Of a stretch of 64,000 nucleotides of DNA, positions 31,962 through 64,000 are shown one piece after another. Location of the stretch: the NCBI GenBank assembly GCA_963719425.1, contig OY970382.1, positions 742,477-806,476 of the forward strand, in the 5' to 3' direction. A program made the position numbers and the translations under genes. The notes under the pieces are model-generated. The model worked only from the letters and a program-made list of their open reading frames with translations, searched no databases and was not told where the DNA came from. How positions within the stretch are numbered: the first letter of the stretch is position 1; each line of letters opens with the position of its first letter. The DNA comes from an uncultured bacterium (GTDB lineage: Bacteria > Patescibacteriota > Minisyncoccia > UBA6257 > 2-01-FULL-56-20).

Positions 31962-32022
31962 GCGGGATTATCGCTTGAGCATCGTCCGCGACGGCCAGTC
32001 AAAATAAGCTATAATTTCAGTA

Positions 32023-32899: not shown

Positions 32900-33343
32900 A
32901 TGAAGAGCGGAGAAGAGAGGAGCTTGCGAGTATCTAAAAGCGTAGACCCCAAGGCGGGTGAAAAACCTCGTGGAGAAGTTGGTTTTACGCATAAAAGTTT
33001 ATATAGCGGCCCCATTCCAACCCCACAGATGTTCGCTGACTTTGAAAAGGTGCTTCCCGGCTCCGCAAATAGAATTTTGACTATGGCAGAAGATCAGTCA
33101 AAACATCGTCAAAGAATAGAGACAAGAGTAATCTGGTTTGATGGTGGTCAATCTATTTTAGGATTACTACTCGCATTCTTAGTAGTCATTGCTGGTCTAG
33201 GTTTCGGGGCATATTTAATCATGAACGATAAGGCTGTTTCTGGACTTGCAACTATCTTATTGGCATTGGGATCGGTAATAGGTTCGATGGTTGTCAGACA
33301 GAGTGCAAAAAAGCCCGACGAAAAGAAAGACGAAAAGAAGTGA
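32900..33343 (+). CDS. DUF2335-like membrane protein
   Basis: SGPIPTPQMFADFEKVLPGSANRILTMAE motif plus a C-terminal TM helix. Confidence 0.5.
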   Translation: MKSGEERSLRVSKSVDPKAGEKPRGEVGFTHKSLYSGPIPTPQMFADFEKVLPGSANRILTMAEDQSKHRQRIETRVIWFDGGQSILGLLLAFLVVIAGLGFGAYLIMNDKAVSGLATILLALGSVIGSMVVRQSAKKPDEKKDEKK

Positions 33344-33385
33344 CTGGCCTCTATCCCGAAGCAGTCAATAATATACCCTATTTTG

Positions 33386-33460
33386 TGGTGCCCTCGTGAG
33401 GAATTGAACCTCAATCTTCTCCTTCGGAGGGAGATGTCCTATCCGTTGAACTACGAGGGC
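33386..33460 (-). tRNA. tRNA-Arg (anticodon CCG)
   Basis: Cloverleaf folded by hand: acceptor GCCCTCG/CGAGGGC, anticodon loop CTCCGAA, T-arm TGAGG-TTCAATT-CCTCA, CCA encoded. Confidence 0.85.
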
Positions 33461-33485
33461 CGCGTGGCGCCGTGGCCGTACGGGG

Positions 33486-49056: not shown

Positions 49057-49102
49057 CTACCTCCACCCAGCCCGTAATTTTCGCCCCGAAAATTACGGCT
49101 GG
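49057..49102. promoter_or_regulatory. 16-bp perfect palindrome overlapping the pilB-type gene stop codon
   Basis: cccagcccgtaatttt-cgcccc-gaaaattacggctggg. Confidence 0.5.
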
Positions 49103-50799
49103 GCGGGCCACTCTATTTGTCCGGTCACGCTTGTGACCTCGCTCCACGTCGTCTTCCCCTCAAGCACCTTCAGGACACCATCTTGCTGCATTGTGACCAT
49201 TTCTTGGCGCTCGGCCACTCCGCGGAGCGCGACCTCTGACGCTTCCTTGAGAATCGTCGTTTCAAGATCCGGCCCGCCTTCCAAAAATTCAAAGATTCCT
49301 ACCCGACCTTTATACCCGATACCGTTGCACTTTGTACAGCCCGCGGTTTCATATACAGAATAATTTTGATATTTTGACTTATCCACCTTGGCCGGCAATC
49401 CGTCGAGGAACTTTTTAATTTTCGTCTTGAGCGCGCCGTCCGGTTCCGCGCGTTTTTTACAATTGGGGCAGAGCACGCGCACGAGGCGCTGGGCAATTGT
49501 GAGCGTAAGCGCCGGCCCGATGCTCACCGCCTTTACGCCGAGGTTGATGAGGCGCGGCACGGCACCCACCGCATCGTTCGTGTGAAGCGTGGAAAATACA
49601 AGGTGGCCCGTCAAAGCCGCCTGCATCGCAATATCGGCCGTCTCAAGGTCGCGCACCTCGCCCACGAGAATCACGTCAGGATCCTGCCGAACGATAGCAC
49701 GAAGGCCGCTCGCGAACGTATACCCCGCCTCGTCGTTCACCTGCGTCTGCTCAATCCCTTCAATGCGATATTCAATGGGGTCTTCCAATGTGATGATCTT
49801 GATGTCGGGACTGTTCAGCGTGCGGAGGAACGCATAGAGCGTCGTCGTTTTCCCGGAGCCTGTGGGTCCGGTGTTCAAGATGAGTCCGTTCGGTCGGGCG
49901 AGTTCGCGCTCCACAAGCGCCAGATTGTCCTCGCGAAGCCCGAGGTCAGGAAGTCCAACCTTCGTCGCGGAAGGGTCAAGTATCCTCATCACGATGGCTT
50001 CACCAAACTCGGCGGGCATGATCGCCACGCGCATCTCCACCTCTTTTCCCGCGATGACGATCGTGAACCTTCCATCCTGCGCTTCGTCGCGGACGTTAAG
50101 CTTCATCTCTGAAAGAAGTTTAATGCGCGAAACGAGCGCGTGGTAGGCAGGGAACGGCATACCGTCAAAGACATCGTGGAGGATGCCATCTATGCGAAAG
50201 CGGACCTTTGCCGCTTTTTCCCCCGCTTCCGTGTGAATGTCCGATGCGCGCATCGCAAGCGCCCCGCCGAGTATAATCTCAATCATCACGACCGGCGACA
50301 CGTTTTTAAAATCCAGCCCGGCGAATTCCTTGTGAATAGCATCCAGATTCGCAAGGCGCTCCGTGAGCTCCTTGATTCTCTTTTCGGTAATGACCACCTT
50401 TCCCACGATCCCCGCGGACACTGGTTTTACGAATTTATACAACTGCCACGCCACTTCCAAGCCAGAAAGGGATGCCACGAACGTTTTCACGTCGTATTGC
50501 TCCGCTTTCAGTTCCGCAATGAGCACCTTCGCCGCGGAAAATTCGGGGTCCATTACCGCCACGGCTAGCTTTTTTGATTTCAACTCAATGCTCGCCACCC
50601 GGGCCTTTCGCGCTTTGTCCTCCGGAATAGCCTTCACGGCATCAAGCGAAACCGGCATTTTGGAAACATCCACATAAGGAAGACCCAGCTTCTTCGCAAG
50701 CCGTTCCGCGGCGCGTTCTTCGCCCTCGCGCCGGAGTTTTGTCAGTCTTGATTGGAGGTTGTCTTGCGGCAGGTCAGCCATTTCCATTGATTTTAACAA
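49093..50799 (-). CDS. pilB: Type II/IV secretion / type IV pilus assembly ATPase (GspE/PilB family)
   Basis: ILNTGPTGSGKTTTL Walker A and a tetracysteine motif near the C-terminus. Confidence 0.85.
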   Translation of the reverse strand: MLKSMEMADLPQDNLQSRLTKLRREGEERAAERLAKKLGLPYVDVSKMPVSLDAVKAIPEDKARKARVASIELKSKKLAVAVMDPEFSAAKVLIAELKAEQYDVKTFVASLSGLEVAWQLYKFVKPVSAGIVGKVVITEKRIKELTERLANLDAIHKEFAGLDFKNVSPVVMIEIILGGALAMRASDIHTEAGEKAAKVRFRIDGILHDVFDGMPFPAYHALVSRIKLLSEMKLNVRDEAQDGRFTIVIAGKEVEMRVAIMPAEFGEAIVMRILDPSATKVGLPDLGLREDNLALVERELARPNGLILNTGPTGSGKTTTLYAFLRTLNSPDIKIITLEDPIEYRIEGIEQTQVNDEAGYTFASGLRAIVRQDPDVILVGEVRDLETADIAMQAALTGHLVFSTLHTNDAVGAVPRLINLGVKAVSIGPALTLTIAQRLVRVLCPNCKKRAEPDGALKTKIKKFLDGLPAKVDKSKYQNYSVYETAGCTKCNGIGYKGRVGIFEFLEGGPDLETTILKEASEVALRGVAERQEMVTMQQDGVLKVLEGKTTWSEVTSVTGQIEWPAQP

Positions 50800-52230: not shown

Positions 52231-54717
52231 ATGCACAAACGCAATAAACGAGACGCGCGACGCTGGCTCACGATTGCCGGCATCGCCGTATCTGCGGGGG
52301 TCGTTATCCTTTCCACAGTGGTCATCTATTTCGCGAAAACACTCCCGTCCATAGAGGAAATTTCAAGCCGGCAAATCAGCCAGTCCACAAAAATTTATGA
52401 CCGCACCGGCACTGTGCTACTCTACGAAATCAACTCCGGTGAGCGGAGAACGGTGGTCCCCTTCGATCAAATCCCGCAAACACTCAAGGACGCAACGGTT
52501 GCGATTGAAGATGAAAATTTCTACAACGAGCCCGCGTTTGACTGGAAGGGCATCGCGCGCGCATTTCTTGTGGACATCACTTCGGGCTCCTTCGCCCAGG
52601 GCGGCTCAACCATCACCCAGCAGCTCGCGCGGACCGCGTTCCTCACCCTAGACCAGACTATCGCGCGGAAAATAAAAGAACTTATTCTCGCGATAAAACT
52701 CAATGAATATTACTCAAAGGACGAAATCCTTGGTCTTTACCTGAATGAGGTCCCGTACGGTGCCACAATTTCCGGCGTGGAGGAGGCGAGCGAGGCATAT
52801 TTCGGAGAACCAGTGCAAAACATCAACCTTGCGCAGAGCGCCCTTCTCGCCGCAATCCCCCAGGCGCCGACGTACTACTCGCCCTGGGGAAGCCACGCGA
52901 GCGATCTTGTAAAACGTGAGCAGCTCGTCCTCCAGAAAATGTACGAACTGGGGAAGATCACGAAGCCAGAGCTCACCGCGGCGCTTGCTTACAAAATAAC
53001 CTTTGAACCGCAATCCATGGGCACCATCAAAGCACCGCACTTCGTAATGGCGGTGGAGGATTATCTCGCTCAAAAATATGGGGAGAATCTTGTAAGCCAA
53101 GGCGGGCTTAGGGTAATAACCACGCTTGACTGGAACCTTCAACAGGAGGCGGAGGCGGCCGTAGAGCAGGGCGCAGCACAAAATCAGGCGTTATACCAGG
53201 GCTACAACGCCGCGCTCGCCGCACAGGACCCGAAAACGGGGCAGGTGCTTGCGATGGTGGGGTCGCGCGATTACTTTGCAACCTCCTCGCTCCCTTTGGG
53301 CTGCACGCCAGGAATAAATTGCAAGTTTGAGCCGAACTTCAACGTTGCCACCCAGGGGCTCCGCCAACCCGGTTCGTCACTCAAACCATTTGTTTATCTT
53401 ACGGCGTTCCAAAAAGGATACACGCCGTCAACGACGCTTTTTGACGTTCCTACAGAATTCAGCACCGACCCTGCGTGCCCCGCAACTCCCAACTTCGCGG
53501 ATAATGACCCACACTGCTTCCACCCGCAAGACTTTGAGGGGACGTTCCAAGGCCCAATTTCTATGCGCGACGCGCTCGCGCAGTCCGTAAATGTGCCCGC
53601 AGTGGAAACTCTCTACCTTGTTGGTATAAAAAATGCGGTCCAGAACGCATACAACTTCGGGCTCACCACGCTCACAAGCCCCGACTCCTACGGCCTCTCC
53701 TTTGTGCTGGGGGGCGGCGCGGTGCGCCTCGCCGATCTTGTGGAGGCGTACTCTGCGCTTGCAGAGGACGGGGTCAAACACAACCAAACCATGATCCGTG
53801 AAGTGCAAGATCCCAATGGAAACGTGCTTGAATCATATGCTGATCAATCTGCCCGAGTCGCCGACTCACAGTCCGTCCGCCTTATTAACGATATTCTTTC
53901 AGATGCCGAGGCGCGGAGCGGCCTTTTCCAAAACAGCTTGAATCTCACAGTGTTCCCAGGGCACGATGTGGCACTCAAGACCGGCACCTCCAACGACTAC
54001 CACGACGCATGGGCGATGGGGTACACGCCGTCCCTCGCCGTCGGCGTCTGGGCAGGAAACAATGACAACACTCCCATGCAACGGAATGGGTCAAGCATCC
54101 TCGCTGCGGTCCCTATGTGGCATGCGTTCATGGCGCAGGCGCTCCAAAGCCAACCGATTGAAACTTTCACAAAACCCGACCCCGTAAACGCGACGAAGCC
54201 AATCCTCGCAGGAAACTATCTCTACAACGATCAACTCCACACTATTCTGTATTACGTTGACAGGGACGACCCGACGGGGCCGCCTCCCGCGAATCCTGCC
54301 GCGGATCCCCAGTTCCACAACTGGGAAACCGCCCTTCTTACGTGGGCCGCAGAAAACCTTCCCAACTTCGGGAATTACAACCATCCAGTGTCAACCGCAC
54401 CGTCTGGCACCGCACCCGCGATTTCCTCGATCATGAGCGACCCTCCCCGCGTTTCCATTATCACGCCACTGGTGGGCAGTTTTGTGGCGAACGAAGTCAC
54501 AGTCTCTGCGAAAATAACGGCCGACAAGGCAATCACAAAAATCACCGTACTTTGGAATGGGCTCCTGGTTCGTGATTTCTCCGGTTCCTTTGGGATCAAC
54601 TACATATTCAACTGGGCGTTCGCCCCGCAAGTCATCGGCGGGCAAAACCTGCTTGAGGTGCAAGCCGCGGATCCTTCGGGCGGCTTGGGGAAGGCCGACA
54701 CAATTGTTTACCACTAA
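52231..54717 (+). CDS. mrcA: Class A penicillin-binding protein (transglycosylase + transpeptidase)
   Basis: N-terminal TM helix, GT51 motifs (SITQQLAR), transpeptidase KTGT and SxN-like motifs, extra C-terminal domain. Confidence 0.85.
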   Translation: MHKRNKRDARRWLTIAGIAVSAGVVILSTVVIYFAKTLPSIEEISSRQISQSTKIYDRTGTVLLYEINSGERRTVVPFDQIPQTLKDATVAIEDENFYNEPAFDWKGIARAFLVDITSGSFAQGGSTITQQLARTAFLTLDQTIARKIKELILAIKLNEYYSKDEILGLYLNEVPYGATISGVEEASEAYFGEPVQNINLAQSALLAAIPQAPTYYSPWGSHASDLVKREQLVLQKMYELGKITKPELTAALAYKITFEPQSMGTIKAPHFVMAVEDYLAQKYGENLVSQGGLRVITTLDWNLQQEAEAAVEQGAAQNQALYQGYNAALAAQDPKTGQVLAMVGSRDYFATSSLPLGCTPGINCKFEPNFNVATQGLRQPGSSLKPFVYLTAFQKGYTPSTTLFDVPTEFSTDPACPATPNFADNDPHCFHPQDFEGTFQGPISMRDALAQSVNVPAVETLYLVGIKNAVQNAYNFGLTTLTSPDSYGLSFVLGGGAVRLADLVEAYSALAEDGVKHNQTMIREVQDPNGNVLESYADQSARVADSQSVRLINDILSDAEARSGLFQNSLNLTVFPGHDVALKTGTSNDYHDAWAMGYTPSLAVGVWAGNNDNTPMQRNGSSILAAVPMWHAFMAQALQSQPIETFTKPDPVNATKPILAGNYLYNDQLHTILYYVDRDDPTGPPPANPAADPQFHNWETALLTWAAENLPNFGNYNHPVSTAPSGTAPAISSIMSDPPRVSIITPLVGSFVANEVTVSAKITADKAITKITVLWNGLLVRDFSGSFGINYIFNWAFAPQVIGGQNLLEVQAADPSGGLGKADTIVYH

Positions 54718-55826
54718 GACTTCAGGATAGGCTTTAAAATATAGAAATAAGAACTGTCGCTCACCGGCCGAAGAAGGGCCGGGTTAGTTTCTTCTTGCAG
54801 CCCTATAAAAACTTCTTCCGTTTTCATCGCTCTGACGGGGTCCGCGAGATAGCGCCAGTTGAAGCACGCCTCGGCTGGTTCCCCTTTTATTTTCGCCGGG
54901 AGAAGATAGGTGTTTTCGCCGAGCAATTGATCCGCCGAACTTATCTCCACCGCTTTCTTTCCCGGATGGGCCGCCAGTTTCACTTCGCTGTTTTTTTGCC
55001 CGAATATCGCGGCGAGTTTGACCGCGTTCGCAAGTTCCTCGCGCGACACAACCACTTCGGTAGCGAATTTTTGGGGCACAAGCTGCGAATAATCCGGGAA
55101 GTTCCCTTCGCCGAGCCGTGAGATAAGTTCAGCGCGCTCAGTTTTGAAAAGAATCTGGTTCTCGTCACGAAACACCCGCACAGTCTCGCTGTCCCCCACC
55201 ATTCGGAGCGCCTCTTGGCTCGTTCTAAGAGGAACGAGCATTTTAAATGCTTCCTTAAATTTGGCAGTAAAAAGGTTCTGCGGGATTGTCTTTTCGGCAA
55301 GCCGGAAACCGTCGGTTGCGGTAAGTTTGAGGCTGTCTAGGGAGAAGTCAAAAAGTGCGGCGTTAAGCTCTGGTCGGAAATCGGACGGCTGCGCCGCTAC
55401 TGCTACCTGCTGAACGGCTTCCTTAAAAAGCGCGCCTCTTATCTCCAGGTACTCATCGGAGACTTCTATCCGGGGGGTTATGGGAAAATCTTCGCTGGGC
55501 AATCCCTGCAGCACAGCACTATAGTTGTCTGTTTTTACCTCAAGCGCGTTGCCTTTCTTGCTGAAATTCAAGCGGTCGCTTTGGATGTTGGTGATAAGGC
55601 TGGAGAGGGGCGCGAGTGGCACGGAAACGCTTCCGCCTTCAATCACCTTCCCAGACACGCGGCAGGTGATCGCAATCTCAAGGTTTGTCGTAGTAAAAAC
55701 AATTCCGTCGCTCCCGGCCACAATAAGGGCGTTTTTTAAAATAGGAAGGTTCGCGTTCTCGCCGGCGGCGCGCTCGATCGTGGACACGGCCTCCTTAATA
55801 TTTGATCGTATTGCAATAAACCTCAT
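54714..55826 (-). CDS. dnaN: DNA polymerase III beta sliding clamp
   Basis: 370-aa three-domain clamp, MRFIAIRSNIKEAVSTIERA. Confidence 0.85.
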   Translation of the reverse strand: MRFIAIRSNIKEAVSTIERAAGENANLPILKNALIVAGSDGIVFTTTNLEIAITCRVSGKVIEGGSVSVPLAPLSSLITNIQSDRLNFSKKGNALEVKTDNYSAVLQGLPSEDFPITPRIEVSDEYLEIRGALFKEAVQQVAVAAQPSDFRPELNAALFDFSLDSLKLTATDGFRLAEKTIPQNLFTAKFKEAFKMLVPLRTSQEALRMVGDSETVRVFRDENQILFKTERAELISRLGEGNFPDYSQLVPQKFATEVVVSREELANAVKLAAIFGQKNSEVKLAAHPGKKAVEISSADQLLGENTYLLPAKIKGEPAEACFNWRYLADPVRAMKTEEVFIGLQEETNPALLRPVSDSSYFYILKPILKS

Positions 55827-55914
55827 GGGTTAATTATATTAAAGTTTTATTATATTAAGACCTTGTTATTAATGTGTTTTTAATTCTTGTGGATAAACCA
55901 GATTTTACTTAGGC
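55827..55914. promoter_or_regulatory. dnaA-dnaN intergenic region with a DnaA box (candidate oriC part)
   Basis: TGTGGATAA (55888..55896) is the reverse complement of TTATCCACA. AT-rich. Confidence 0.5.
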
Positions 55915-57285
55915 CTAGCTTTTATAAATCATATCCTTGATTGTTAATATCTTTTGGTTAAGTGTGGAGCTTCTGTTGATTTCTTGGTTAATCTTTTCAT
56001 AAGAGTGGATGGCGGTAGTGTGGTCTCTCCCCATTTTCTCCCCAATGTACGGGTAGGAAAGTTCTGAGATCTCCCGAAGCAAGTACATGGCAATCTGACG
56101 CGGCTCCACCACCTCCTTCCTGCGGTTGTGGCTTATGATGTCCTCAAGGGAAACACCGAAGAATTCGGCAACCGCCTTCAATATCTGGGCGTCGCTCACC
56201 CGCTTGGAGACGTTCTTGGTTGATTTTTCTATAATTTCCTCTGCAAGCGCTTTTGTGATTTCGACCCCCTTTTGCTCTTGGAGAAAAAGCAATTTTTTCA
56301 ATATTCCCTCAAGCTCGCGGATGTTTTTCCTAAGGCGGCGCGCAAGGAGATCTATGATATCCTCGCCCAGGCTGCGGTTCGCTTCCAAAAGCTTGCTCCG
56401 GACGATGGCGACGCGCATCTCGTATTCTGGGTAGCCGATGTCCGCGACGAAGCCGCCCTCAAAGCGGGACCGCAGGCGCTCCTCAAGTGTAGGGAGAGAC
56501 TGTGGGGGTCGATCGGAAGAGATGATAATTTGCTTACCCCCCTCGTACAGCGCATTGAAGGTGTGGAAAAACTCCTCTTCAGTTTTTTCCTTCCCGCCGA
56601 TAAACTGAATGTCGTCTATGATGAGCACATCAACGTCGCGGTATTTTTTCTTCACGCTTTCGATTCGGTCGTTGCGCAACCCCCAGACCACCTCGCGGGT
56701 ATACTGCTCGGAGGGAACATATTTTGGCTTCACCCTCTTCCCGTTCCGCGCGACAATCTCGTTGCCAATCGCTTGGATGAGGTGCGTTTTCCCGAGCCCC
56801 ACGCCGCCATACACGAAAAACGGATTATATTTTCCGATATGCTCCGCGATGGACTTCCCCGCGGTGAACGCGAGCTCGTTGGAGGGTCCCACCACAAACA
56901 TAGAGAAGGTGTAGCGGGGATTTAAATTGGTTTCAGGATCCGCCTTGTTGAAATCCAATTCTGCTGGAACAAGCGTAGTGAGGTCGTTTGTGTCCGTCAT
57001 GCTCTTTTGGGGTACGGGCGCCCGCTGCCCTATGACGAACTCCACCTTTTTGATTGAGCTGTCCATATTGCGCAGTATCCCAAGGATGTTTTTTTGGTAC
57101 TTGTCCTCGACCCAGGACTTGGCGAAATTATTCGGCAGAGCAACGTACAAAGTACCCTCTTCGCGTTCTATAGGCTTGCTGCTCCTGAGCCACATTGAGA
57201 AGCTCGCCTTCGTGAGTTGGATCTCCATTTCTCCCAATGTTGATTGCCAAAGCTTCTCGAGATCCATGTTGTTGTTTATTATCAA
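55915..57285 (-). CDS. dnaA: Chromosomal replication initiator DnaA
   Basis: FVYGGVGLGKTHLIQAIG Walker A. C-terminal DNA-binding domain. Confidence 0.9.
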   Translation of the reverse strand: MIINNNMDLEKLWQSTLGEMEIQLTKASFSMWLRSSKPIEREEGTLYVALPNNFAKSWVEDKYQKNILGILRNMDSSIKKVEFVIGQRAPVPQKSMTDTNDLTTLVPAELDFNKADPETNLNPRYTFSMFVVGPSNELAFTAGKSIAEHIGKYNPFFVYGGVGLGKTHLIQAIGNEIVARNGKRVKPKYVPSEQYTREVVWGLRNDRIESVKKKYRDVDVLIIDDIQFIGGKEKTEEEFFHTFNALYEGGKQIIISSDRPPQSLPTLEERLRSRFEGGFVADIGYPEYEMRVAIVRSKLLEANRSLGEDIIDLLARRLRKNIRELEGILKKLLFLQEQKGVEITKALAEEIIEKSTKNVSKRVSDAQILKAVAEFFGVSLEDIISHNRRKEVVEPRQIAMYLLREISELSYPYIGEKMGRDHTTAIHSYEKINQEINRSSTLNQKILTIKDMIYKS

Positions 57286-57405
57286 CCCTTACGCCCGCCT
57301 CGTCAAAAAGTCAAACCCCGCCGTTTGTGGATGGGATGTGCATAGCCTGTTGCAATGCCCACGACTCGCTGGCATATTTTTAAATCCCATGATAAACTCT
57401 TCAAG

Positions 57406-57540
57406 ATGTCATTTACTTACAGTCCCAAAAAGAAAAAAAGGAAAAGGACACACGGGTTTTTGCGGCGGCAACGGGCAGCGGGTGGCCGGCGCATTCTCGC
57501 GCGGCGTAGGGCGAAAGGGAGGCGGCGAGTCAGTGTCTAA
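57406..57540 (+). CDS. rpmH: Ribosomal protein L34
   Basis: [44 protein letters not shown]. Confidence 0.85.
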
Positions 57541-57545
57541 CGGCG

Positions 57546-57878
57546 ATGCTCTCTAAGTCATCACGGTTGCCGAGCCGGGATTTTAGGGCGGGGAGGTGGG
57601 GAATGGTATCAACGCCATACTTTGTATTGAAAAAAAAACCAAACACGCAAGAGAAAATCAGGGTTGGGGTCGTCGCAAATGCCTTCGTGCACAAGAGTGC
57701 TGCGAAAAGGAACTTTTGGAAGCGGCAGGCGAAAGCAGCACTCCTCGCGGCTGACGGTACGGGCACCGATTTCCTTGTCATCCTCACTCCGAGAATCAAC
57801 ACCATTACCAAGAAGCAATTTAGGGAGCTTTTATACCGGACCTTCCTTCCCGACACAAAAGACGATCGGCGACAATGA
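57546..57878 (+). CDS. rnpA: RNase P protein component
   Basis: 110-aa basic protein immediately downstream of rpmH. Confidence 0.8.
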   Translation: MLSKSSRLPSRDFRAGRWGMVSTPYFVLKKKPNTQEKIRVGVVANAFVHKSAAKRNFWKRQAKAALLAADGTGTDFLVILTPRINTITKKQFRELLYRTFLPDTKDDRRQ

Positions 57879-58594
57879 GCTATCTCTATCAAACCATCCT
57901 TTACCGACCCATTCTTAATCTTCTCGTTTATTTTTACGAGACGATCTCATTCCGCGACCTCGGGATCGCCATAGTATTCGTCACTATCCTCATCCGCCTG
58001 GTGCTTTATCCATTATTCCACAAGGGTGCCAAACAGCAGATGCTGATGCAGCGCATCCAGCCGAAAATTAAAAAAATCCAGGAGTTGCACAAAAACGACA
58101 GGGAAAAGCAAGCGCAGGCGCTGATGGAACTTTACAAGGAGCACGGGGTAAGTCCCTTCTCAAGCATCATTCTTCTCATCATTCAACTACCAATCATGAT
58201 TGCCCTTTACTGGGTGGTGCGTTCTGCGCTCGCGCCTGGGCAGCTCGCAGGGCTATATTACTTTGTGGCGGTGCCGCAGGCCATCAACCCCTTCTTCCTC
58301 GGTGCCATCAATCTCGCGGCCCCGAGCATTGTCCTTATCCTCCTCGCTGCACTCGCCCAGTACTTACAGGCGCGCCTTGCCATCTATCGGGTTCCCGGGA
58401 GCAACGCGCCGCTTTCTCCCGCGGAAAAGATGGCGCGGCAGATGGTCTTTATCGGGCCTCTCGTCACCATTTTTATCTTCTACAGCTTACCCGCTGCCGT
58501 CGGCCTCTACTGGCTTGTCACATCACTCTTCTCCGTAGGACAACAACTGATCATCAACAAGCATTTCAAAAAAGGAGAGACCGCGGCGGTGTAG
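57875..58594 (+). CDS. yidC: Membrane protein insertase YidC (short form)
   Basis: 239-aa YidC/Oxa1 core with 5 TM helices. Confidence 0.85.
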   Translation: MSYLYQTILYRPILNLLVYFYETISFRDLGIAIVFVTILIRLVLYPLFHKGAKQQMLMQRIQPKIKKIQELHKNDREKQAQALMELYKEHGVSPFSSIILLIIQLPIMIALYWVVRSALAPGQLAGLYYFVAVPQAINPFFLGAINLAAPSIVLILLAALAQYLQARLAIYRVPGSNAPLSPAEKMARQMVFIGPLVTIFIFYSLPAAVGLYWLVTSLFSVGQQLIINKHFKKGETAAV

Positions 58595-58667
58595 CGGAGC
58601 GCCCGCAGATGCCGAGTCCTCCTCCGCGGCTTGATTTCAGCGCGGGAGTATGGAATAGTACCTTGAA

Positions 58668-59102
58668 ATGGAGAGTTGGGAAGCGATTACCAAAAACATC
58701 GTGGAGGCAATGGGATTCCGCGATTATCGGCTGGAAATAAAGCCGGAGGAAAAGCACGGCTCGCTTTTCATTTACGACGGCGGGAATCTTCTTAAAGAAA
58801 ACCTCGCCGCCATTGTAGAGAGCGTGAACCATCTTTTTCAAATGATTGCGAAGAAGAATCAGATTGACCTCTTCTTTCTTGACGTGAATAATTACCGGCA
58901 GGAGCGCGAGAACTTGATTGCCGAACTTGCGCGCGCGGCGGCGAAGAAAGCAGTCGCGACGAAAAGCGCGGTGCCGCTCCCTGCGATGAACTCGTACGAA
59001 CGGAGAATTGTGCACGCGGAACTCGCGTTGCATCCCGAGGTGACGACTGAGAGTTCGGGAGAGGGAAAGGAGCGCTATGTGGTTATAAAGCCACTTTCGT
59101 AG
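58668..59102 (+). CDS. Jag/KhpB-like R3H RNA-binding protein
   Basis: YERRIVHAELALHPEVTTESSGEGKERYVVIKP R3H motif. Confidence 0.75.
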   Translation: MESWEAITKNIVEAMGFRDYRLEIKPEEKHGSLFIYDGGNLLKENLAAIVESVNHLFQMIAKKNQIDLFFLDVNNYRQERENLIAELARAAAKKAVATKSAVPLPAMNSYERRIVHAELALHPEVTTESSGEGKERYVVIKPLS

Positions 59103-59107
59103 CAGTC

Positions 59108-60388
59108 CTACTGCGCGGCGGTGGAAGTGCCGAGCGAGAGCCCGTAGAGCTTTTGATCGTAGCGGTTGACAAAGAAGAGCGTCTTATTGAAAACACGGAG
59201 ATCGGTTGCATCTATGGATTGCACAGGAGAGAAGATATTATCTACCGCGCCCGTGTCGGTGTGGATACGATAGAAATCGTCCGTTGTGAAAAATGACAAC
59301 TGCTCATAATCATCCGGCAAATGGGCGCTCGCGAATTTATTCTGGTTCTGCGGCACCGCACAGTACAGCGCGAGGTAGGGCATTGCTGCGTAAGAAGAGG
59401 TCGCCGTGGAGGAAGCCACTATAGAGGAAGTCGCGACGGTTTCATAGTTGAACACACATTTTGAAGGGAGGGTTAAAAAATTCAGATCCTGCAAGCCAGC
59501 GGCGCCGGGACTCCAAAGGGAAAGTATGCCGCCACTGTTTCCCAGGCTCGGGCTTGAGAAAATGAGCCCCATTGAACTCGTGGTATTGCTCCAAGCCGTT
59601 TCAAGGCCGTAGTTTCCTGACGGGATCGCGGCGAGCGTTTTTGCTTGGAGATCAAACAGCCACGCTGACTCCTGCGCGTAGGCGCTTGGTTTGTCGCAAA
59701 GTACCAATCGGGTTTTGTTCGGCCACAGAAGTGAGAAGTCGCTCATGCCAATAGTGAGGAGGAAGGAAGGATTGGCGGCGGTCTTGGAAACGTCAAGAGT
59801 CGCAAGCGTCTGGGTACCGTCAGGATTGTTTTTGAAATAAGCGATGCGATAGTCGCTCGGCGACCAGACGGGCGAAACAATACCCTCGGGGAGAGGAGTC
59901 CATGCTTTAGTAGCCAGATCAAAGATACTCGTCTGGGGGCTTCTTTGGTCGCCGAAATTCACCAGCACCTTCGCGCCGTCAAAGGAAAAGCTCGCGCCCA
60001 GCAGGCCTTGTATTTCCGCTGAGCTTAAAAAAGCTACCTGGCCAGCGGTGATGCCGGCAATCTTCCCGTCCGGTTCTATAACCGTCACGTCATTTTTCGC
60101 ACCAACGAAATAATCAAGAACCGGTTCGTCTGACACTATGCCGAATTGTACCGCACTGGCCCCGTTGCTCGGTGCGTTGCCCGTGATTGGGCTGCCAGCC
60201 GCGCCGCTGTTCGATCCCCCCGTCGTGTTGGCACCGGACGGTGCCAACACGGAGGGAAGATTGCCGGGAGCAGTCCCAGTTTGTGCCGGCACGGACGTGC
60301 TGCGCGACGAAAGCAGCAAAAGAAAGAGTGCCACGGCAGCCACGACAACAAGTAGGATTATTATGTAAATGATGATTCTTCGCGACAT
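59108..60388 (-). CDS. Hypothetical membrane-anchored surface protein
   Basis: 426 aa with N-terminal TM and Ser/Thr/Gly-rich linker. Last gene of the operon running from 64000 down to 59108. Confidence 0.45.
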   Translation of the reverse strand: MSRRIIIYIIILLVVVAAVALFLLLLSSRSTSVPAQTGTAPGNLPSVLAPSGANTTGGSNSGAAGSPITGNAPSNGASAVQFGIVSDEPVLDYFVGAKNDVTVIEPDGKIAGITAGQVAFLSSAEIQGLLGASFSFDGAKVLVNFGDQRSPQTSIFDLATKAWTPLPEGIVSPVWSPSDYRIAYFKNNPDGTQTLATLDVSKTAANPSFLLTIGMSDFSLLWPNKTRLVLCDKPSAYAQESAWLFDLQAKTLAAIPSGNYGLETAWSNTTSSMGLIFSSPSLGNSGGILSLWSPGAAGLQDLNFLTLPSKCVFNYETVATSSIVASSTATSSYAAMPYLALYCAVPQNQNKFASAHLPDDYEQLSFFTTDDFYRIHTDTGAVDNIFSPVQSIDATDLRVFNKTLFFVNRYDQKLYGLSLGTSTAAQ

Positions 60389-60391
60389 GGC

Positions 60392-60745
60392 TTAATGGGT
60401 AGATGACGCGGTAAGCGTAGGGAGTACGGGGTTATTCAAAGTGACAATCTGGGGATTAATTGTTTGCAGAACGATGTAGGCGCCAGCAAGGAGAAGAAGG
60501 CCGAGGAGGGCATTGGTAATCCAGCTTTTCCCCTCTGATTCCGCGGTGGGGTTGCCTCGCCCCGTTGCGTACTTTATACCTCCAAAAACAATAGCTCCGA
60601 ACGCCAGAATGCCCGAGAACAAGAGGGCGAAAGTGTAGAAACCCGCGACGACTCCCGGGAAGGTGCTGCTGGAATTTATTCCAGGCAGATTGGAGTTGAT
60701 AGTGATTGTGGCGGCGAGCGCTTTAAGCGGCAGGTAGTGGTTCAT
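60392..60745 (-). CDS. Small two-helix membrane protein, possible VirB2/TrbC-like pilin
   Basis: 117 aa with two hydrophobic helices separated by a short polar loop. Sits in the VirB4 operon. Confidence 0.4.
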   Translation of the reverse strand: MNHYLPLKALAATITINSNLPGINSSSTFPGVVAGFYTFALLFSGILAFGAIVFGGIKYATGRGNPTAESEGKSWITNALLGLLLLAGAYIVLQTINPQIVTLNNPVLPTLTASSTH

Positions 60746-61473
60746 TGGGTTGTCTTTGTAAGCACGACGCTCGCACTGGCGCCAACCGATGGGTTGTCGC
60801 CCTGTCGGATTGAGAGGTTTATTGAGAGAGAATAGCCGCTCGGTGCGTCACTGCCCAGATTAACGGTAAGGTCTTGGGGGTTCTCCTGCGTCGCCACGAC
60901 TTGGCCGTTTACCATCCATTGGAAGGAAAGCTTGTCAAGCCCCGCCACATTGAAGAAATAGGGGAGAGCTTGCACTGACACGGACGGTTGGGAAAAAGTA
61001 TTGCCTTCGTAAGGGGCGGCAATGACTACGCGCGGACTCGCCAACTGGAAGTGGACGGTATTAACGAGGAAGCCGCCGGGGAAGTCGGGAATTTGCGCTC
61101 TCAAGGATACGATTTCGGCGTACCCCGGGGCGCTGAAAGTTATACTTTGCTTGCCAATGCCGCCGCCCAAGAAATTATCATCCATATACCAATAAACAGT
61201 GTAGGAGGAGAGATCAATGGGCTTCCCGTTGGAAATCGCCGTGACGGAAGCGGAAACCTGGGAATTGATCCCGGGCAGCGCTTTTCCGTGGTAGCCGGGC
61301 GGCACTTCGCTGCTCAGTGCGCTCCAGGTGATGAGGAGCTGAGGTCTGGAGTTTAAGGTTTGCGCGCTGGTTCTCACGACAAACGCCAAGGCAATCAAAA
61401 CTGCGGCCGCGAGCACAGGAGTCATGATGTTGGAGCGGAGCTTTGAGGCAAAACCCCTGCGGAGAACTTCCAT
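60742..61473 (-). CDS. Hypothetical secreted/membrane-anchored protein
   Basis: 243 aa with N-terminal TM/signal. 4-nt overlaps with both flanking genes. Confidence 0.45.
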   Translation of the reverse strand: MEVLRRGFASKLRSNIMTPVLAAAVLIALAFVVRTSAQTLNSRPQLLITWSALSSEVPPGYHGKALPGINSQVSASVTAISNGKPIDLSSYTVYWYMDDNFLGGGIGKQSITFSAPGYAEIVSLRAQIPDFPGGFLVNTVHFQLASPRVVIAAPYEGNTFSQPSVSVQALPYFFNVAGLDKLSFQWMVNGQVVATQENPQDLTVNLGSDAPSGYSLSINLSIRQGDNPSVGASASVVLTKTTQ

Positions 61474-61513
61474 AATATTATTGTATCACACCGCGCCCCG
61501 CTATTCCCTCTGC

Positions 61514-62401
61514 TTATTCCTCTAGCGGTGGCGGCGGCGGCGGTGGCGGTGGTGGCGCCTTTTCTATGTCTTTGACGGTTCTCGCCTGCCCTGGTCTCGC
61601 TTGCCGCGCCCCAATGTGTGGGACAGTATCTTCTTCTTGGGCTGCCCGTGCCTCCCTCGCTTTTTCAGCAAGGGCTTGGATCCCTTCCGCTGACGACGGG
61701 AATTCTTCCTCCATGGCCGCCGCAGGGAGTGCCGCCTCCTCAATTTCTTCAAACTTTTTCTCCGCCTCCGCCTCCGCTCTCTCGCGCACCCCTTCTTCCG
61801 TCTCTCCTGCCTCTTCCGCTCCTATTCCTCCGGTGGGCGCTTCTTCGCCAGATGGCGGAGTCCCTTCCGCTTCTGGTCCTGCGAGCCCTTCCGCGCTTGG
61901 GGTCTCTCCTGCGCGGCCCCGGGGGACGCTGACTTCTGTTGTGGGCGGTACGCCCACACCTCCGCCCGGCACTCCTCCCTCCGTCGGGGTAACTCTCGCT
62001 GTGCTTGCGCCCCCCACGGCCCCTTCTTCCAATTCCCCTTTTCCTTCCGCTGCCTGCACCGCCCCCCCAATTTTTTCTATGGCCGCCGTGGCCTTAGAGG
62101 GATTGTTATGGAGCCGCACGAGGAAAAAAAACGTAATGACGTCTATAAAAGGATCAGCCAGATCCGCGATCGGTATCGCACTGTCAGCTTCCGAGCCTGC
62201 GTTTGCGCCGAACATAACAAGCTGGGCGGTGCCGCTCATTCCTCTGAGGTTGAGGTAGATCTGGGTGAAAGCAAAGTCAAAAAGCGGTCCAATAAACGGG
62301 AGAGGAATGTCGAGCAGCCCGAAAACAAAAATCAGTATTTCAACAAATATTTCTTCGGTGAGCGATATTTTTGATTGTTGTGGTTGGGCCTCTTCATCCA
62401 T
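61514..62401 (-). CDS. Hypothetical membrane protein with Gly/Pro/Glu-rich tail ending in an 11-residue proline run
   Basis: 295 aa. The poly-Pro is encoded by ggtggcggcggcggcggtggcggtggtggcg at ~61527..61557. Confidence 0.45.
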   Translation of the reverse strand: MDEEAQPQQSKISLTEEIFVEILIFVFGLLDIPLPFIGPLFDFAFTQIYLNLRGMSGTAQLVMFGANAGSEADSAIPIADLADPFIDVITFFFLVRLHNNPSKATAAIEKIGGAVQAAEGKGELEEGAVGGASTARVTPTEGGVPGGGVGVPPTTEVSVPRGRAGETPSAEGLAGPEAEGTPPSGEEAPTGGIGAEEAGETEEGVRERAEAEAEKKFEEIEEAALPAAAMEEEFPSSAEGIQALAEKAREARAAQEEDTVPHIGARQARPGQARTVKDIEKAPPPPPPPPPPLEE

Positions 62402-62427
62402 ATGAATGGTAGTCGCGCCGAGGCGCT

Positions 62428-64000
62428 CTACAGTTCTTTTTTCTCCTCAAGCAGCTGCTCCGGATTCGTGGTGATAATCTGGTCCTCAAAATACGACGGC
62501 ACGATTTGGATCGCGACATGGCGTTTGCCGGCAAAGAAAATTCCCGTGCCCACCTCTGCGCTCAAAAGGAAGTTTTTTTCCGCGTCCGTAAGATCAAATG
62601 CCTTTGCCACGATGTCAATCGTCGCCGGCGCCTGCTTCAAAAGCATTTGGAGAGATGAGTTCGTGATAATGGGGCGCCCGTAAGGGGAGCGCAAAAAGTC
62701 TTCCACGTCTTGCGTGATCGTGGAAACGCCGAGGAAATATTTCCGTGCGCGCTTCACAAGGCCGAAAAGGAACGTGGCCGAGTCGTCATTCTTCATCATG
62801 ATCCACGCCTCATCAATGAAGAGCAGCCGCTTCGCGAGCTTTGCGCGGATCAGGCTCCAGATGAAGTTCAGAACGACGAACATCCCAATGGGACGCAGCT
62901 CCTCCTCAAGATCGCGGATGGAGAACACGATGAGGCGGTTATTGACGTCAATGTTGGTCGGCTGGTTCAGGAGCCCCGCGAAGCTTCCTTCGGTGTATTT
63001 ATAGAGCTTCTCCGACATGCCCCTGCCTCCCTCAAGGTTGCGAAGAATGGTAGCAAGATCGCCCAGGAGCGGCGGTTCTTTTCCCGCGAAATTCATTCCG
63101 ACGACGATTTCGCGCGAGGCGTAGGTTTCCGTAATCGCGCGGTCAAGGATGGCGTCCTCTTCGGGGGTGAGCTTCCCCAACATAAGCTTAATCAGGCTCG
63201 CGAGCGTCACGATATGCGAGCGGAGGACATCGGACGGCGTCTCGTCCTCGGGGACGAGTGGGAGATCAAACGGGTTGACATGCTCGTGCCCCGAGAGCGA
63301 AATATTGAACATGCTGCCGCCGAAGGTCTCGGCGAGCCGTTGGTATTCGTTTTCCGGGTCAATCACAATCACCATATCCACGCCTGCCATGAGCGAGCGG
63401 ATGATCTCCAGTTTCGTCGTGTACGACTTGCCGGAGCCGGACTTTGCAAAAACCACTTGATTTGCGTTCTCCAGAGAAAATCGGTCAAAGATCACAAGGT
63501 TGCTGTTGTGCAGGTTGATGCCGTACATAATTCCCTGATTTGAGGAAAGGTCCTCCGAAACAAACGGGAAGAATGAGGAAATCGGGCTCGTGTTCATTGG
63601 CGTGTAAACTTGAAGCTTGTCCTCGTTGAGAGGAAGGACTGAGAAAAGCCCTTCCAGCTGTTCAAAAAGCGCCGGCTTCAGATAAATGAGCTTCGCCTCC
63701 ATCATACTTATGAGCTTGCTCTCCAGCCGCGCGAGATCGTCGGTCGTGTCCGCGTAGATCGTGATGTAGACGCCGGTGTCAAAAAGTTTTTCCTGCGATT
63801 CTTGGAGGGAATCGCGCAGCCCTTCCACGTCTTTGATGGCGGTCTCCAGCATCGGATTCCGCACAAGGCCCTTTTCTTCCTCGTCGTTCAGCTGCGACTC
63901 CAGCTGGCCGGCCTTCTTGCGGAGATTTTTGAGCGCCGTGCCCGTATCAATCGGATTTACAAAAATGGAAACGTCAAAAAGATTGGGGAGGTTGATAAGC
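62428..64000 (-). CDS. VirB4/TrbE-family type IV secretion ATPase (5' end outside the window)
   Basis: FAKSGSGKSY Walker A, LFIDEAWIMM Walker B. The frame stays open to the window edge. Confidence 0.8.
   Translation of the reverse strand, partial: LINLPNLFDVSIFVNPIDTGTALKNLRKKAGQLESQLNDEEEKGLVRNPMLETAIKDVEGLRDSLQESQEKLFDTGVYITIYADTTDDLARLESKLISMMEAKLIYLKPALFEQLEGLFSVLPLNEDKLQVYTPMNTSPISSFFPFVSEDLSSNQGIMYGINLHNSNLVIFDRFSLENANQVVFAKSGSGKSYTTKLEIIRSLMAGVDMVIVIDPENEYQRLAETFGGSMFNISLSGHEHVNPFDLPLVPEDETPSDVLRSHIVTLASLIKLMLGKLTPEEDAILDRAITETYASREIVVGMNFAGKEPPLLGDLATILRNLEGGRGMSEKLYKYTEGSFAGLLNQPTNIDVNNRLIVFSIRDLEEELRPIGMFVVLNFIWSLIRAKLAKRLLFIDEAWIMMKNDDSATFLFGLVKRARKYFLGVSTITQDVEDFLRSPYGRPIITNSSLQMLLKQAPATIDIVAKAFDLTDAEKNFLLSAEVGTGIFFAGKRHVAIQIVPSYFEDQIITTNPEQLLEEKKEL

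What the first reader, a model, noticed from the sequence alone, without database searches (positions are those of the whole stretch)
59108..64000. VirB4-ATPase / pilin-like operon next to the replication origin
Five co-directional, 4-nt-overlapping genes on the minus strand: a VirB4/TrbE-type ATPase (C-terminal domain in the window), a membrane protein ending in an 11-residue proline run, a secreted 243-aa protein, a 117-aa two-helix pilin-like protein, and a 426-aa Ser/Thr-rich surface protein. Together with the lone PilB-type ATPase at 49 kb, this points to a type IV secretion or pilus-like apparatus, as used by episymbiotic CPR bacteria for DNA uptake or host attachment. None of the four smaller proteins has a recognisable family.
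Basis: partly seen in the sequence, partly recalled or inferred. Interest (0 to 1): 0.5.

Follow-up and report, generated by a model that had tools for sequence, protein, structure and literature searches.

The report
Patescibacterial type IV secretion gene cluster
These five genes are the tail end of the chromosomal type IV secretion system that most ultra-small CPR/Patescibacteria carry beside their replication origin; the machine is real and probably important, but papers from 2023-2025 already describe it, so this copy is an ordinary member.

Summary
The five co-directional minus-strand genes exist at the stated coordinates. They are the distal part of an 11-12-gene cluster conserved across Paceibacteria (Parcubacteria). 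In relatives the order is ksgA | PKD protein, VirB6-like, unknown, PrgI/VirB3, TrsD-like, VirB4, small membrane protein, Ig-like protein, PF18895 pilin-like protein, beta-propeller protein | jag-yidC-rnpA-rpmH-dnaA-dnaN. The ATPase is a CD1110-family (monoderm MPF_FATA-type) VirB4. The 117-aa protein matches Pfam T4SS_pilin. The 426-aa protein is a membrane-anchored seven-bladed beta-propeller on a disordered stalk. Order and position hold down to 54% VirB4 identity. VirB4 divergence tracks DnaA divergence. No relaxase or coupling protein lies nearby. This is therefore a vertically inherited chromosomal system, not a conjugative-element remnant. Quinonero-Coronel et al. 2025 described exactly this: a patescibacterial VirB4 clade with VirB2-like pilins near dnaA. 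In Saccharibacteria the homologous system is essential for growth on the host, and its cargo is unknown. Novelty is low. The residual interest lies in the uncharacterised, conserved accessory proteins.

The parts
62428..64000 (-). VirB4-type T4SS ATPase, CD1110/MPF_FATA family. The 5' end lies beyond the window: 523 codons are present and about 50-60 are probably missing.
   Evidence: NCBIfam NF045971 scores 361.6 bits (cut-off 325), covering model positions 231-734 of 752. Pfam matches are P-loop_TraG and AAA_10. PDB 4ag5 VirB4 matches at E 1.4e-40. Walker A is at residue 185 and Walker B at 392. Identity to VirB4 of 80 Patescibacteria loci is 54-90%. Relatives' ORFs are 571-590 aa.
61514..62401 (-). 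295-aa membrane protein. It has a conserved roughly 100-aa hydrophobic N-terminal domain (MDEE..KISLTEEI..., ...NNP) and a disordered Glu/Ala/Gly/Pro-rich tail ending in P10-LEE. It occupies the conserved position immediately after VirB4.
   Evidence: No Pfam or NCBIfam match. An HMM of the small ORF that follows VirB4 in relatives hits it at E 3.7e-7. The same HMM hits the ORF right after VirB4 in at least 45 of 73 loci. The hydrophobic segment is at about residues 12-42. This protein is absent from the 5.8-billion-protein database, so it was probably not called in the deposited annotation.
60742..61473 (-). 243-aa exported or membrane-anchored protein with Ig-like (BiPBP_C-type) beta-sandwich repeats.
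   Evidence: Pfam PF06832 BiPBP_C scores 30.3 bits (GA 26.8) over 2 stretches. An N-terminal hydrophobic segment spans residues 12-40 after a basic n-region. The family is present after VirB4 in 35 of 44 loci with enough flank. No PDB sequence match. The export and topology are inferred.
60392..60745 (-). 117-aa VirB2-like 'T4SS pilin' (PF18895). It is a two-helix hydrophobic hairpin with a short charged loop and has an unusually short 13-residue leader.
   Evidence: PF18895 scores 27.2 bits (GA 26.6). All 43 homologues hit PF18895, 12 of 43 hit PF04956 TrbC/VirB2, and 29 of 43 hit NF045849, the Mollicutes ICE pilin-like protein. The AF2 model has pLDDT 78 with helices at 29-61 and 66-96. There is no hydrophobic signal sequence upstream of the ATG. 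Foldseek and PDB sequence searches were not discriminating.
59108..60388 (-). 426-aa surface protein: N-terminal transmembrane helix (3-27), disordered Ser/Thr/Gly/Ala/Pro linker (30-75), and a seven-bladed beta-propeller (about 80-420) with two invariant cysteines.
54714..59102 (.). Context, not part of the T4SS. Origin-region housekeeping genes: dnaN (54714-55826, -), dnaA (55915-57285, -), rpmH (57355-57540, +), rnpA (57546-57878, +), yidC (57875-58594, +) and jag/R3H (58668-59102, +). The jag gene is convergent with the last T4SS gene, and their stop codons are 5 nt apart.
   Evidence: Pfam matches for all six genes. GC-skew minimum. DnaA box at 55888-55896. The same arrangement is seen in 35-37 of 44 relatives.

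Best explanation
The window holds the last five genes of the chromosomal, origin-proximal type IV secretion system of a Paceibacteria (Parcubacteria/CPR) bacterium. This is the patescibacterial VirB4 clade that derives from monoderm (MPF_FATA) conjugation machinery.

Proposed working, step by step:
1. Shown by homology: a VirB4 ATPase with intact Walker motifs is the motor.
2. Shown only in close relatives, because the genes lie beyond the window end: the motor docks on a VirB3 (PrgI) plus VirB6-like membrane platform, and its N-terminal domain is a separate TrsD-like protein.
3. Inferred: VirB4 extracts the 117-aa VirB2-like hairpin from the membrane and assembles it into a short tube or channel extension through the cell wall.
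4. Inferred from topology and fold only: the Ig-like 243-aa protein, the stalked beta-propeller 426-aa protein and the 295-aa membrane protein with its long acidic, proline-ended tail are lineage-specific extracytoplasmic or envelope parts. They would scaffold the conduit or contact the host surface.
5. Inferred from the absence of a relaxase and coupling protein and from strict vertical inheritance: the machine does not conjugate DNA. It mediates epibiont-host exchange needed for growth.

The direction and cargo are not determinable here. The candidates are effector export or import of host macromolecules such as nucleic acids.
For: All of the best 80 relatives, out of at least 584, are Patescibacteria. 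The conserved gene order is PKD protein, VirB6-like, unknown, PrgI, TrsD-like, VirB4, small membrane protein, Ig-like, pilin, propeller, then jag-yidC-rnpA-dnaA-dnaN, in loci down to 54% VirB4 identity. VirB4 identity correlates with DnaA identity (Spearman 0.88, n=39), and VirB4 (54-90%) is more conserved than DnaA (38-73%). The source contig is about 888 kb, the size of a chromosome. G+C content is like that of the flanks. No relaxase, T4CP or integrase occurs among the recurrent flank families or among the large ORFs tested in the window. The pilin-like protein is supported, and the propeller. In the literature, the same clade, components and dnaA proximity are described in PMC12102498. T4SS and pilin genes are essential for epibiotic growth of Southlakia epibionticum, with no relaxase or coupling protein recognised in that cluster (PMC10633639, PMC12857230). 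Tubular structures at the parasite-host interface, which the authors suggest may be T4SS pili, are reported in a Minisyncoccota/Patescibacteriota isolate (bioRxiv 10.64898/2026.06.21.733656).
Against: The upstream half of the cluster (VirB6-like, PrgI, TrsD-like) is not in the window and is inferred from relatives with 87-90% identical VirB4. The VirB6-like assignment rests on weak hits: TrbL_4 at E 0.0099, and CD3337/EF1877 at E 3e-6 to 5e-4, all below cut-off. The pilin call for the window protein is only 0.6 bit above the Pfam threshold. It does not hit PF04956, and neither sequence nor fold search finds a solved VirB2, TraA or TedC pilin significantly. In many relatives the same hairpin is the N-terminus of 250-540-aa proteins, which is atypical for a polymerising pilin. 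A coupling protein could be encoded elsewhere in the genome; the literature finds VirD4 homologues mostly far from virB4. No experiment exists for any Paceibacteria T4SS. Essentiality data come from Saccharimonadia, a different class with a different accessory gene set.
Confidence: 0.85

Rival explanations
1. The PF18895 protein is not a pilus subunit. The apparatus is pilus-less, like the Gram-positive conjugation channels it derives from. The two-helix hairpin is a membrane-embedded channel subunit or anchor that in many lineages carries extracellular domains, some of them cell-wall hydrolases.
For: In 76 family members from the related loci the median length is 286 aa and the maximum is 538 aa, with the hairpin at the N-terminus. 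One member fuses it to a VanY peptidase. Nine others have an H..D...HxH motif at the C-terminus. Homologues hit the hairpin regions of larger Gram-positive conjugation membrane proteins, namely pLS20_p028 (377 aa) and MMCAP2_0566 (322 aa). No significant similarity to solved conjugative pilins was found.
Against: The window protein and its closest relatives are minimal at 101-130 aa, like VirB2. Twelve of 43 hit TrbC/VirB2. In the solved F-type conjugative pilus (from general knowledge, not tested here) the pilin termini lie on the outer surface, so C-terminal decorations are not excluded. Saccharibacterial pilin arrays are essential (PMC10633639), and tubular structures are seen in a cultivated relative (bioRxiv 10.64898/2026.06.21.733656). 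The peptidase nature of most of the extensions was not confirmed.
Confidence: 0.3
2. It is a DNA-uptake machine analogous to the archaeal Ced/Ted system or the Helicobacter ComB system. It would import host or environmental DNA as a nucleotide source.
For: There is no relaxase or T4CP nearby. VirB4 shows weak similarity to CedB and CedD models (E 3.6e-8 and 3.3e-3). CPR bacteria lack nucleotide synthesis. The idea is raised in PMC11665869.
Against: The CedB score is 32.5 bits against a cut-off of 700, so it only reflects the shared ATPase fold. The best family is a conjugation-type VirB4. In S. epibionticum the comEC competence gene is dispensable while the T4SS is essential, and the T4SS function is called completely unknown (PMC12857230, PMC11665869). 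Nothing in the five genes binds or processes DNA.
Confidence: 0.15
3. It is the remnant of a conjugative plasmid or ICE that integrated near the origin.
For: The VirB4 belongs to a family named for conjugative elements (CD1110). A large serine recombinase lies elsewhere in the window at 19440-21095.
Against: The same 11-12 genes occur in the same order between ksgA and jag-yidC-rnpA-dnaA in most Paceibacteria loci with enough flank. Divergence tracks DnaA. No relaxase, T4CP or integrase lies in the flanks. Composition is like that of the neighbours. The recombinase is 38 kb away, beside tmRNA. PMC12102498 reaches the same conclusion.
Confidence: 0.03
4. The five genes and the PilB ATPase at 49 kb form one type IV pilus (T4P) apparatus.
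For: Both carry 'type IV' names. The PilB-type ATPase is real: T2SSE at E 2e-118 plus MshEN.
Against: None of the five proteins hit a T4P family in Pfam or NCBIfam. VirB4 and PilB belong to different ATPase families and drive different machines. PilB is 8 kb away on the other side of dnaA and is flanked by ruvB, a GH1 gene, an unknown gene and a PBP. In relatives the T4SS cluster is complete without it.
Confidence: 0.02

Closest known systems
Patescibacteria-clade T4SS (Quinonero-Coronel et al. 2025, PMC12102498; Southlakia epibionticum SEML1_0006-0019, Wang et al. 2023, PMC10633639)
   Same: It has a VirB4 nested in MPF_FATA, with relatives only in Patescibacteria. A PF18895 VirB2-like pilin lies next to virB4. 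PrgI, TrsD-like and VirB6-like genes are upstream in relatives. No relaxase or T4CP is nearby. The location is chromosomal, beside dnaA, rpmH, rnpA and ksgA.
   Different: This Paceibacteria version has a single minimal pilin gene rather than the array of six in S. epibionticum. Its accessory genes are also not named in the main text of those papers (checked by term search): a stalked 7-bladed propeller, an Ig-like protein, a small membrane protein with an acidic, proline-ended tail, and a PKD protein in relatives. Essentiality has been shown only for the Saccharimonadia system.
Monoderm conjugative MPF_FATA T4SSs (C. difficile CTn CD1110-type; pCF10 PrgH-I-J; pGO1 TrsC-D-E)
   Same: It matches the VirB4 family (NF045971, above cut-off), PrgI/VirB3, the TrsD-like protein, and a CD3337/EF1877-like VirB6 analogue, and it lacks outer-membrane core parts.
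   Different: It is not on a mobile element. No relaxase or coupling protein is adjacent. No recognisable VirB1-type hydrolase or VirB8-like protein occurs among the five genes. It has a VirB2-like pilin, which the review PMC12857230 says Gram-positive T4SSs lack.
Mollicutes ICE transfer genes (NCBIfam Mbov_0397 VirB4 and Mbov_0395 'pilin-like conjugal transfer protein')
   Same: VirB4 hits NF045975 at 265 bits. Of the pilin homologues, 29 of 43 hit NF045849 (best E 5.6e-7). A pilin-like hairpin therefore also exists in another monoderm MPF_FATA lineage.
   Different: All scores are below the curated cut-offs (590 and 40 bits), so these are distant relatives, not members. The Mollicutes genes sit on ICEs.
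Agrobacterium VirB/VirD4 and F/P-type conjugative pili (VirB2/TrbC/TraA pilins)
   Same: It shares the small two-helix hydrophobic hairpin with a short charged loop, and a VirB4 motor encoded beside it.
   Different: The window protein does not hit PF04956. It has no long cleavable leader. The system has no VirB5, VirB7, VirB9 or VirB10 and no outer membrane. Fold search did not pick out solved pilins.
Archaeal Ced/Ted DNA-import systems
   Same: It is a VirB4-like ATPase system without a relaxase that uses VirB2-like pilins. The A. pernix conjugation pilus 8dfu appears among the non-significant fold hits (rank 7, E 4.7).
   Different: CedB and CedD similarity is far below cut-off. The phylogenetic affinity is with bacterial monoderm VirB4.

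Membership tests
Patescibacteria-clade T4SS (MPF_FATA-derived) | A VirB4 of the MPF_FATA type whose closest relatives are patescibacterial | tested here: met
   NF045971 scores 361.6 bits against a cut-off of 325. All 80 best genome hits (54-90% identity) are Patescibacteria MAGs. No explicit phylogeny was built, so clade placement rests on best hits.
Patescibacteria-clade T4SS (MPF_FATA-derived) | A VirB2-like pilin (PF18895/PF04956) encoded near virB4 | tested here: met
   PF18895 scores 27.2 bits (GA 26.6), two genes downstream of virB4. The database's precomputed annotation of the identical protein P0121 is PF18895. All 43 homologues hit it.
Patescibacteria-clade T4SS (MPF_FATA-derived) | TrsD-like, VirB3 (PrgI) and VirB6-like genes adjacent to virB4 | not testable with these tools
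   These genes would lie beyond position 64000, and the source contig could not be retrieved. In relatives, PrgI is present in 46 of 50 loci, the VirB6-like gene in 50 of 50, and the TrsD-like split in 60 of 73.
Patescibacteria-clade T4SS (MPF_FATA-derived) | No relaxase or coupling protein linked to the cluster | tested here: inconclusive
   None was found among the large window ORFs scanned or among recurrent families in 10-kb flanks of relatives. The window was not scanned exhaustively, and the rest of the genome is unseen.
Patescibacteria-clade T4SS (MPF_FATA-derived) | Chromosomal location near dnaA, rpmH and rnpA (Paceibacteria pattern) | tested here: met
   The last T4SS gene ends 5 nt from jag, and dnaA is 1.8 kb away. 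The same pattern holds in 35-37 of 44 relatives.
Conjugative MPF_FATA T4SS (plasmid/ICE) | Carried on a mobile element with a relaxase, a T4CP and integration or replication functions | tested here: not met
   The cluster has a conserved chromosomal position between housekeeping genes, and VirB4 co-diverges with DnaA at rho 0.88. No relaxase, T4CP or integrase is in the flanks.
TrbC/VirB2 pilin family (PF04956) | Sequence membership in PF04956 | tested here: not met
   The window protein has no PF04956 hit at E<=1. Only 12 of 43 homologues hit weakly, best at 2.3e-4.
TrbC/VirB2 pilin family (PF04956) | A two-helix hairpin fold resembling solved conjugative pilins | tested here: inconclusive
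   AF2 gives a hairpin with helices at 29-61 and 66-96. Foldseek finds nothing with E<1, and the A. pernix conjugation pilus ranks 7 at E 4.7. A hairpin is too simple for this test to discriminate.
TrbC/VirB2 pilin family (PF04956) | A long signal peptide removed before assembly | tested here: not met
   Only 13 residues precede the conserved A-x-A/ITIN..LPG motif, and there is no hydrophobic core upstream. More distant homologues do have a canonical signal peptide.
Type IV pilus / T2SS-like system | A PilB/GspE ATPase with a PilC platform, prepilins and a prepilin peptidase | tested here: not met
   None of the five proteins hits a T4P family. The PilB at 49093-50799 stands alone among unrelated genes.
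Ced/Ted or ComB DNA-import T4SS | CedB/CedD-type or ComB4-type ATPase membership | tested here: not met
   CedB scores 32.5 bits against a cut-off of 700, and CedD 16.2 against 600.

The most novel reading that the evidence does not exclude
The Paceibacteria version of the T4SS would be an import conduit rather than a secretion device. A VirB4-driven tube of the minimal PF18895 hairpin would be positioned on the host by the stalked seven-bladed propeller, the Ig-like protein and the PKD protein. It would penetrate the host envelope and draw host macromolecules, for example RNA, into the epibiont. The conserved accessory genes found here would be the host-recognition and penetration module. A second element of this reading is that the pilin-like hairpin is ancestral to monoderm MPF_FATA systems, because related hairpins occur in Mollicutes ICEs and pLS20, rather than borrowed from diderm T4SSs.
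Probability: 0.15. Interest if true: 0.75.

Novelty: already known. Interest (0 to 1): 0.25.

Why it matters
The patescibacterial T4SS is one of the few machines shown to be essential for the epibiotic life of CPR bacteria, in Saccharibacteria, and its cargo and direction of transport are still unknown. This window adds no new kind of system. It does show, for the largest CPR class (Paceibacteria), a tightly conserved and vertically inherited cluster in which VirB4 is more conserved than DnaA. The cluster contains four conserved envelope proteins that have no described family or role: the 295-aa membrane protein, the Ig-like protein, the stalked propeller, and upstream PKD and unknown proteins. 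These are concrete candidates for host-contact parts if a Paceibacteria co-culture becomes genetically tractable.

Tried and rejected
(1) I tried to retrieve the source contig to read beyond position 64000. Exact-protein look-ups returned only 1-1.5-kb Logan contigs or nothing, so the upstream genes had to be inferred from relatives.

(2) I tested the 117-aa protein against solved pilins. A profile search of PDB sequences gave only the HtrII transmembrane hairpin (E 2e-3). Foldseek of the AF2 model gave no hit with E<1. Neither test could discriminate.

(3) I searched for homologues of the N-terminal 120 residues of the 295-aa protein in the 5.8-billion-protein set and found nothing. Family membership had to come from an HMM I built from the related loci.

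(4) I tested whether the C-terminal extensions of the pilin-like proteins in relatives are M15/VanY peptidases. Pfam supports this only in L079. Pfam found nothing in seven other extended members, and jackhmmer from the L079 domain found no link. Only a motif count supports the idea, so it remains an unconfirmed side note.

(5) I checked a possible paralogue of the propeller protein at window 10726-11610, flagged by a profile hit at E 1.3e-8. Pairwise BLASTP shows nothing, so I did not pursue it.

(6) Promoter and terminator scans of 58500-64000 gave nothing convincing inside the cluster. Tandem-repeat scans gave only the proline-coding triplet run.

(8) I considered and rejected the ICE-remnant and type IV pilus readings; the reasons are given under the rival explanations.

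Full report
**Observation.** ORF listing confirms five co-directional minus-strand genes: 59108-60388 (426 aa), 60392-60745 (117 aa), 60742-61473 (243 aa), 61514-62401 (295 aa), and an ORF from 62428 that stays open to the window end (523 codons). The proline run is 10 residues (283-292), followed by LEE. Directly downstream, convergent and 5 nt away, lie jag/R3H, yidC, rnpA and rpmH on the plus strand, then dnaA and dnaN on the minus strand. The cumulative GC skew reaches its minimum at about 57-59 kb, and a perfect DnaA box sits between dnaN and dnaA. 'Next to the replication origin' is therefore correct.

**What the proteins are.**
- ATPase. It is a VirB4 of the monoderm type. NCBIfam NF045971 (CD1110 family) scores 361.6 bits against a cut-off of 325. 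The Mollicutes ICE VirB4, TraC and generic VirB4 models follow below their cut-offs. Pfam gives P-loop_TraG and AAA_10. The only solved relative by sequence is the Thermoanaerobacter VirB4 C-terminal domain, 4ag5, at E 1.4e-40. Walker A (AKSGSGKS) and Walker B (LLFIDE) are intact.
- 117-aa protein. It matches Pfam PF18895 'T4SS_pilin' just above threshold (27.2 against 26.6 bits). The identical database protein carries the same precomputed annotation. All 43 aligned homologues hit PF18895. Twelve also hit TrbC/VirB2 (PF04956). Twenty-nine hit NCBIfam NF045849, the 'pilin-like conjugal transfer protein' of Mollicutes ICEs, and eleven hit the pLS20_p028 conjugation membrane protein. AlphaFold2 gives a helical hairpin with helices at 29-61 and 66-96 (pLDDT 78). 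Neither a PDB sequence-profile search nor Foldseek singles out solved conjugative pilins. The leader is only 13 residues long, with no hydrophobic core upstream, unlike more distant homologues that have a canonical signal peptide.
- 243-aa protein. It has a basic N-terminal region plus a hydrophobic segment and Ig-like BiPBP_C repeats (30.3 bits, GA 26.8).
- 295-aa protein. It has no library match and is missing from the large protein database. Its N-terminal hydrophobic domain belongs to the family of small ORFs that follow VirB4 in at least 45 of 73 related loci. Its long acidic Gly/Ala/Pro-rich tail is shared only with the closest relatives.

**Context from relatives.** A scan of one genome per species found at least 584 relatives of the VirB4. 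The best 80 (54-90% identity) are all Patescibacteria, mostly labelled Paceibacterota or Parcubacteria. I called and clustered ORFs in these loci. This gave one recurrent architecture: pcrA/uvrD, ksgA, one or two PKD-domain proteins, a 600-1000-aa polytopic protein, a 300-600-aa unknown, PrgI (VirB3), a roughly 215-aa TrsD-like protein, VirB4 (about 590 aa), then the four families seen in the window, then jag, yidC, rnpA, dnaA, dnaN and a class A PBP.
- The polytopic protein has weak TrbL_4 and CD3337/EF1877 (VirB6-like) hits.
- The TrsD-like protein matches the N-terminal positions of VirB4 models.
- Among 50 loci with at least 7 kb upstream, the VirB6-like gene is present in 50, PrgI in 46 and the PKD protein in 43.
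- Among 44 loci with at least 6.5 kb downstream, the propeller is in 39, the pilin in 36, the Ig-like protein in 35 and dnaA in 35.
- The TrsD-like/VirB4 split occurs in 60 of 73 loci, and a fused form in 3.

The window therefore holds only the distal five genes. Its ATPase ORF probably lacks only about 50-60 N-terminal residues.

**Inheritance.** VirB4 identity to the window protein correlates with DnaA identity (Spearman 0.88, n=39). VirB4 is consistently more conserved than DnaA, whereas the accessory proteins diverge quickly, to 21-45% identity. Other recurrent flank families are housekeeping or envelope genes: ComM-like, Lnt, O-antigen ligase, flippase, UbiA and M23/LysM peptidases. No relaxase, coupling protein or integrase was seen. 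The source contig is about 888 kb. The ICE-remnant reading is therefore rejected.

**Relation to the PilB ATPase.** The ORF at 49093-50799 is a genuine PilB/GspE-type ATPase (T2SSE at E 2e-118, plus MshEN). It is flanked by ruvB, a GH1 gene, an unknown gene and a PBP. It belongs to the type IV pilus class of machines and is not evidence for, or part of, the VirB4 system.

**Literature.** Quinonero-Coronel et al. 2025 (PMC12102498) surveyed 3,035 patescibacterial genomes. They report a monophyletic VirB4 clade nested in MPF_FATA. Near virB4 they find TrsD, PrgI/VirB3, VirB6 and VirB2-like (PF18895/PF04956) genes. Relaxases are very rare. In Paceibacteria and Microgenomatia the cluster lies close to dnaA, dnaN, rnpA, rpmH and ksgA. 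Wang et al. 2023 (PMC10633639) showed by Tn-seq that the T4SS cluster and its pilin array are essential for epibiotic growth of Southlakia epibionticum, and that it lacks recognisable coupling and relaxase proteins. The 2025 T4SS review (PMC12857230) and a 2024 perspective (PMC11665869) call the function unknown, with effector delivery or nucleotide or DNA import as candidates. A 2026 preprint reports tubular structures at the parasite-host interface, which its authors suggest may be T4SS pili, and host-RNA uptake in a cultivated Minisyncoccota strain. The finding is thus a typical instance of an already described system. A term search of the main text of the 2025 survey found no mention of the propeller or the PKD protein.

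**Mechanism.** Homology shows a VirB4 motor and a VirB2-like hairpin. Relatives show a VirB3/VirB6-like platform and a split-off VirB4 N-terminal domain. The rest is inferred:
- VirB4-driven extraction and assembly of the hairpin into a wall-spanning tube.
- Accessory envelope proteins acting as scaffold or host-contact module.
- A non-conjugative role in epibiont-host exchange.

The main internal rival is that the hairpin is a membrane channel subunit or anchor rather than a pilin. In relatives it is often the N-terminus of 250-540-aa proteins and is once fused to a VanY peptidase. The peptidase nature of the other extensions could not be confirmed.

**Verdict.** The PilB link and the 'no family' statement are wrong. 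Novelty is low and the system is already known. The residual interest lies in the conserved but uncharacterised accessory proteins and in the open question of what the system transports.

Noticed in passing
window 2124-5687 (-): The isoleucyl-tRNA synthetase (1187 aa) carries an inserted histidine-phosphatase (His_Phos_1) domain at residues 512-680, between the two halves of its catalytic-domain match.
   Followed up: no
window 19198-21377: A large serine recombinase (19440-21095, +) lies between a LOOT RNA (19198-19321, -) and the tmRNA gene (21062-21377, -). Its 3' end overlaps tmRNA by about 34 nt. This may mark a mobile element integrated at ssrA.
   Followed up: no
window about 31000-34000: There is a G+C trough (0.42-0.46, against about 0.53 elsewhere) next to tRNA-Arg(CCG) at 33386-33460. 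It may be foreign DNA.
   Followed up: no
window 49093-50799 (-): A PilB/GspE-type ATPase (T2SSE plus MshEN) has no other recognisable type IV pilus genes beside it. Its neighbours are ruvB, a GH1-like gene, an unknown 412-aa protein and a class A PBP.
   Followed up: partly
related loci, e.g. L079 12713-15172, L026 7863-9479, L018 8919-10370, L033 13958-15430: In many Paceibacteria the PF18895 pilin-like hairpin is the N-terminal part of Cys-rich proteins of 250-540 aa (median 286 aa). One is fused to a VanY D-Ala-D-Ala carboxypeptidase. Nine others end with an H..D...HxH motif. Pfam and jackhmmer did not confirm a peptidase in these.
   Followed up: partly
related loci L015, L037, L038, L039 versus most others: VirB4 is split into a roughly 215-aa TrsD-like N-terminal protein and a roughly 590-aa ATPase in 60 of 73 loci. 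It is a single 770-800-aa protein in a few lineages. This shows directly that the TrsD-like gene is the detached VirB4 N-terminal domain.
   Followed up: partly
window 61514-62401 (-) versus antisense ORF 61566-62258 (+): The 295-aa protein and its N-terminal 120 residues are absent from the 5.8-billion-protein collection, although its neighbours from the same genome are present. The depositor's gene caller probably missed it, or chose the 230-aa antisense ORF in this GC-rich, low-complexity stretch.
   Followed up: partly
homologues of window 60392-60745 (alignment A2): Pilin-like hairpins related to PF18895 also match NCBIfam models from other monoderm conjugation systems (Mollicutes ICE Mbov_0395, pLS20_p028), all below cut-off. 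This bears on whether the patescibacterial pilin was borrowed from diderm systems or is ancestral in MPF_FATA.
   Followed up: partly
window 10726-11610 (-): A 294-aa ORF with no Pfam family is weakly hit by the HMM of the propeller-protein family (E 1.3e-8 in a small database). It shows no pairwise similarity to the 426-aa protein.
   Followed up: partly
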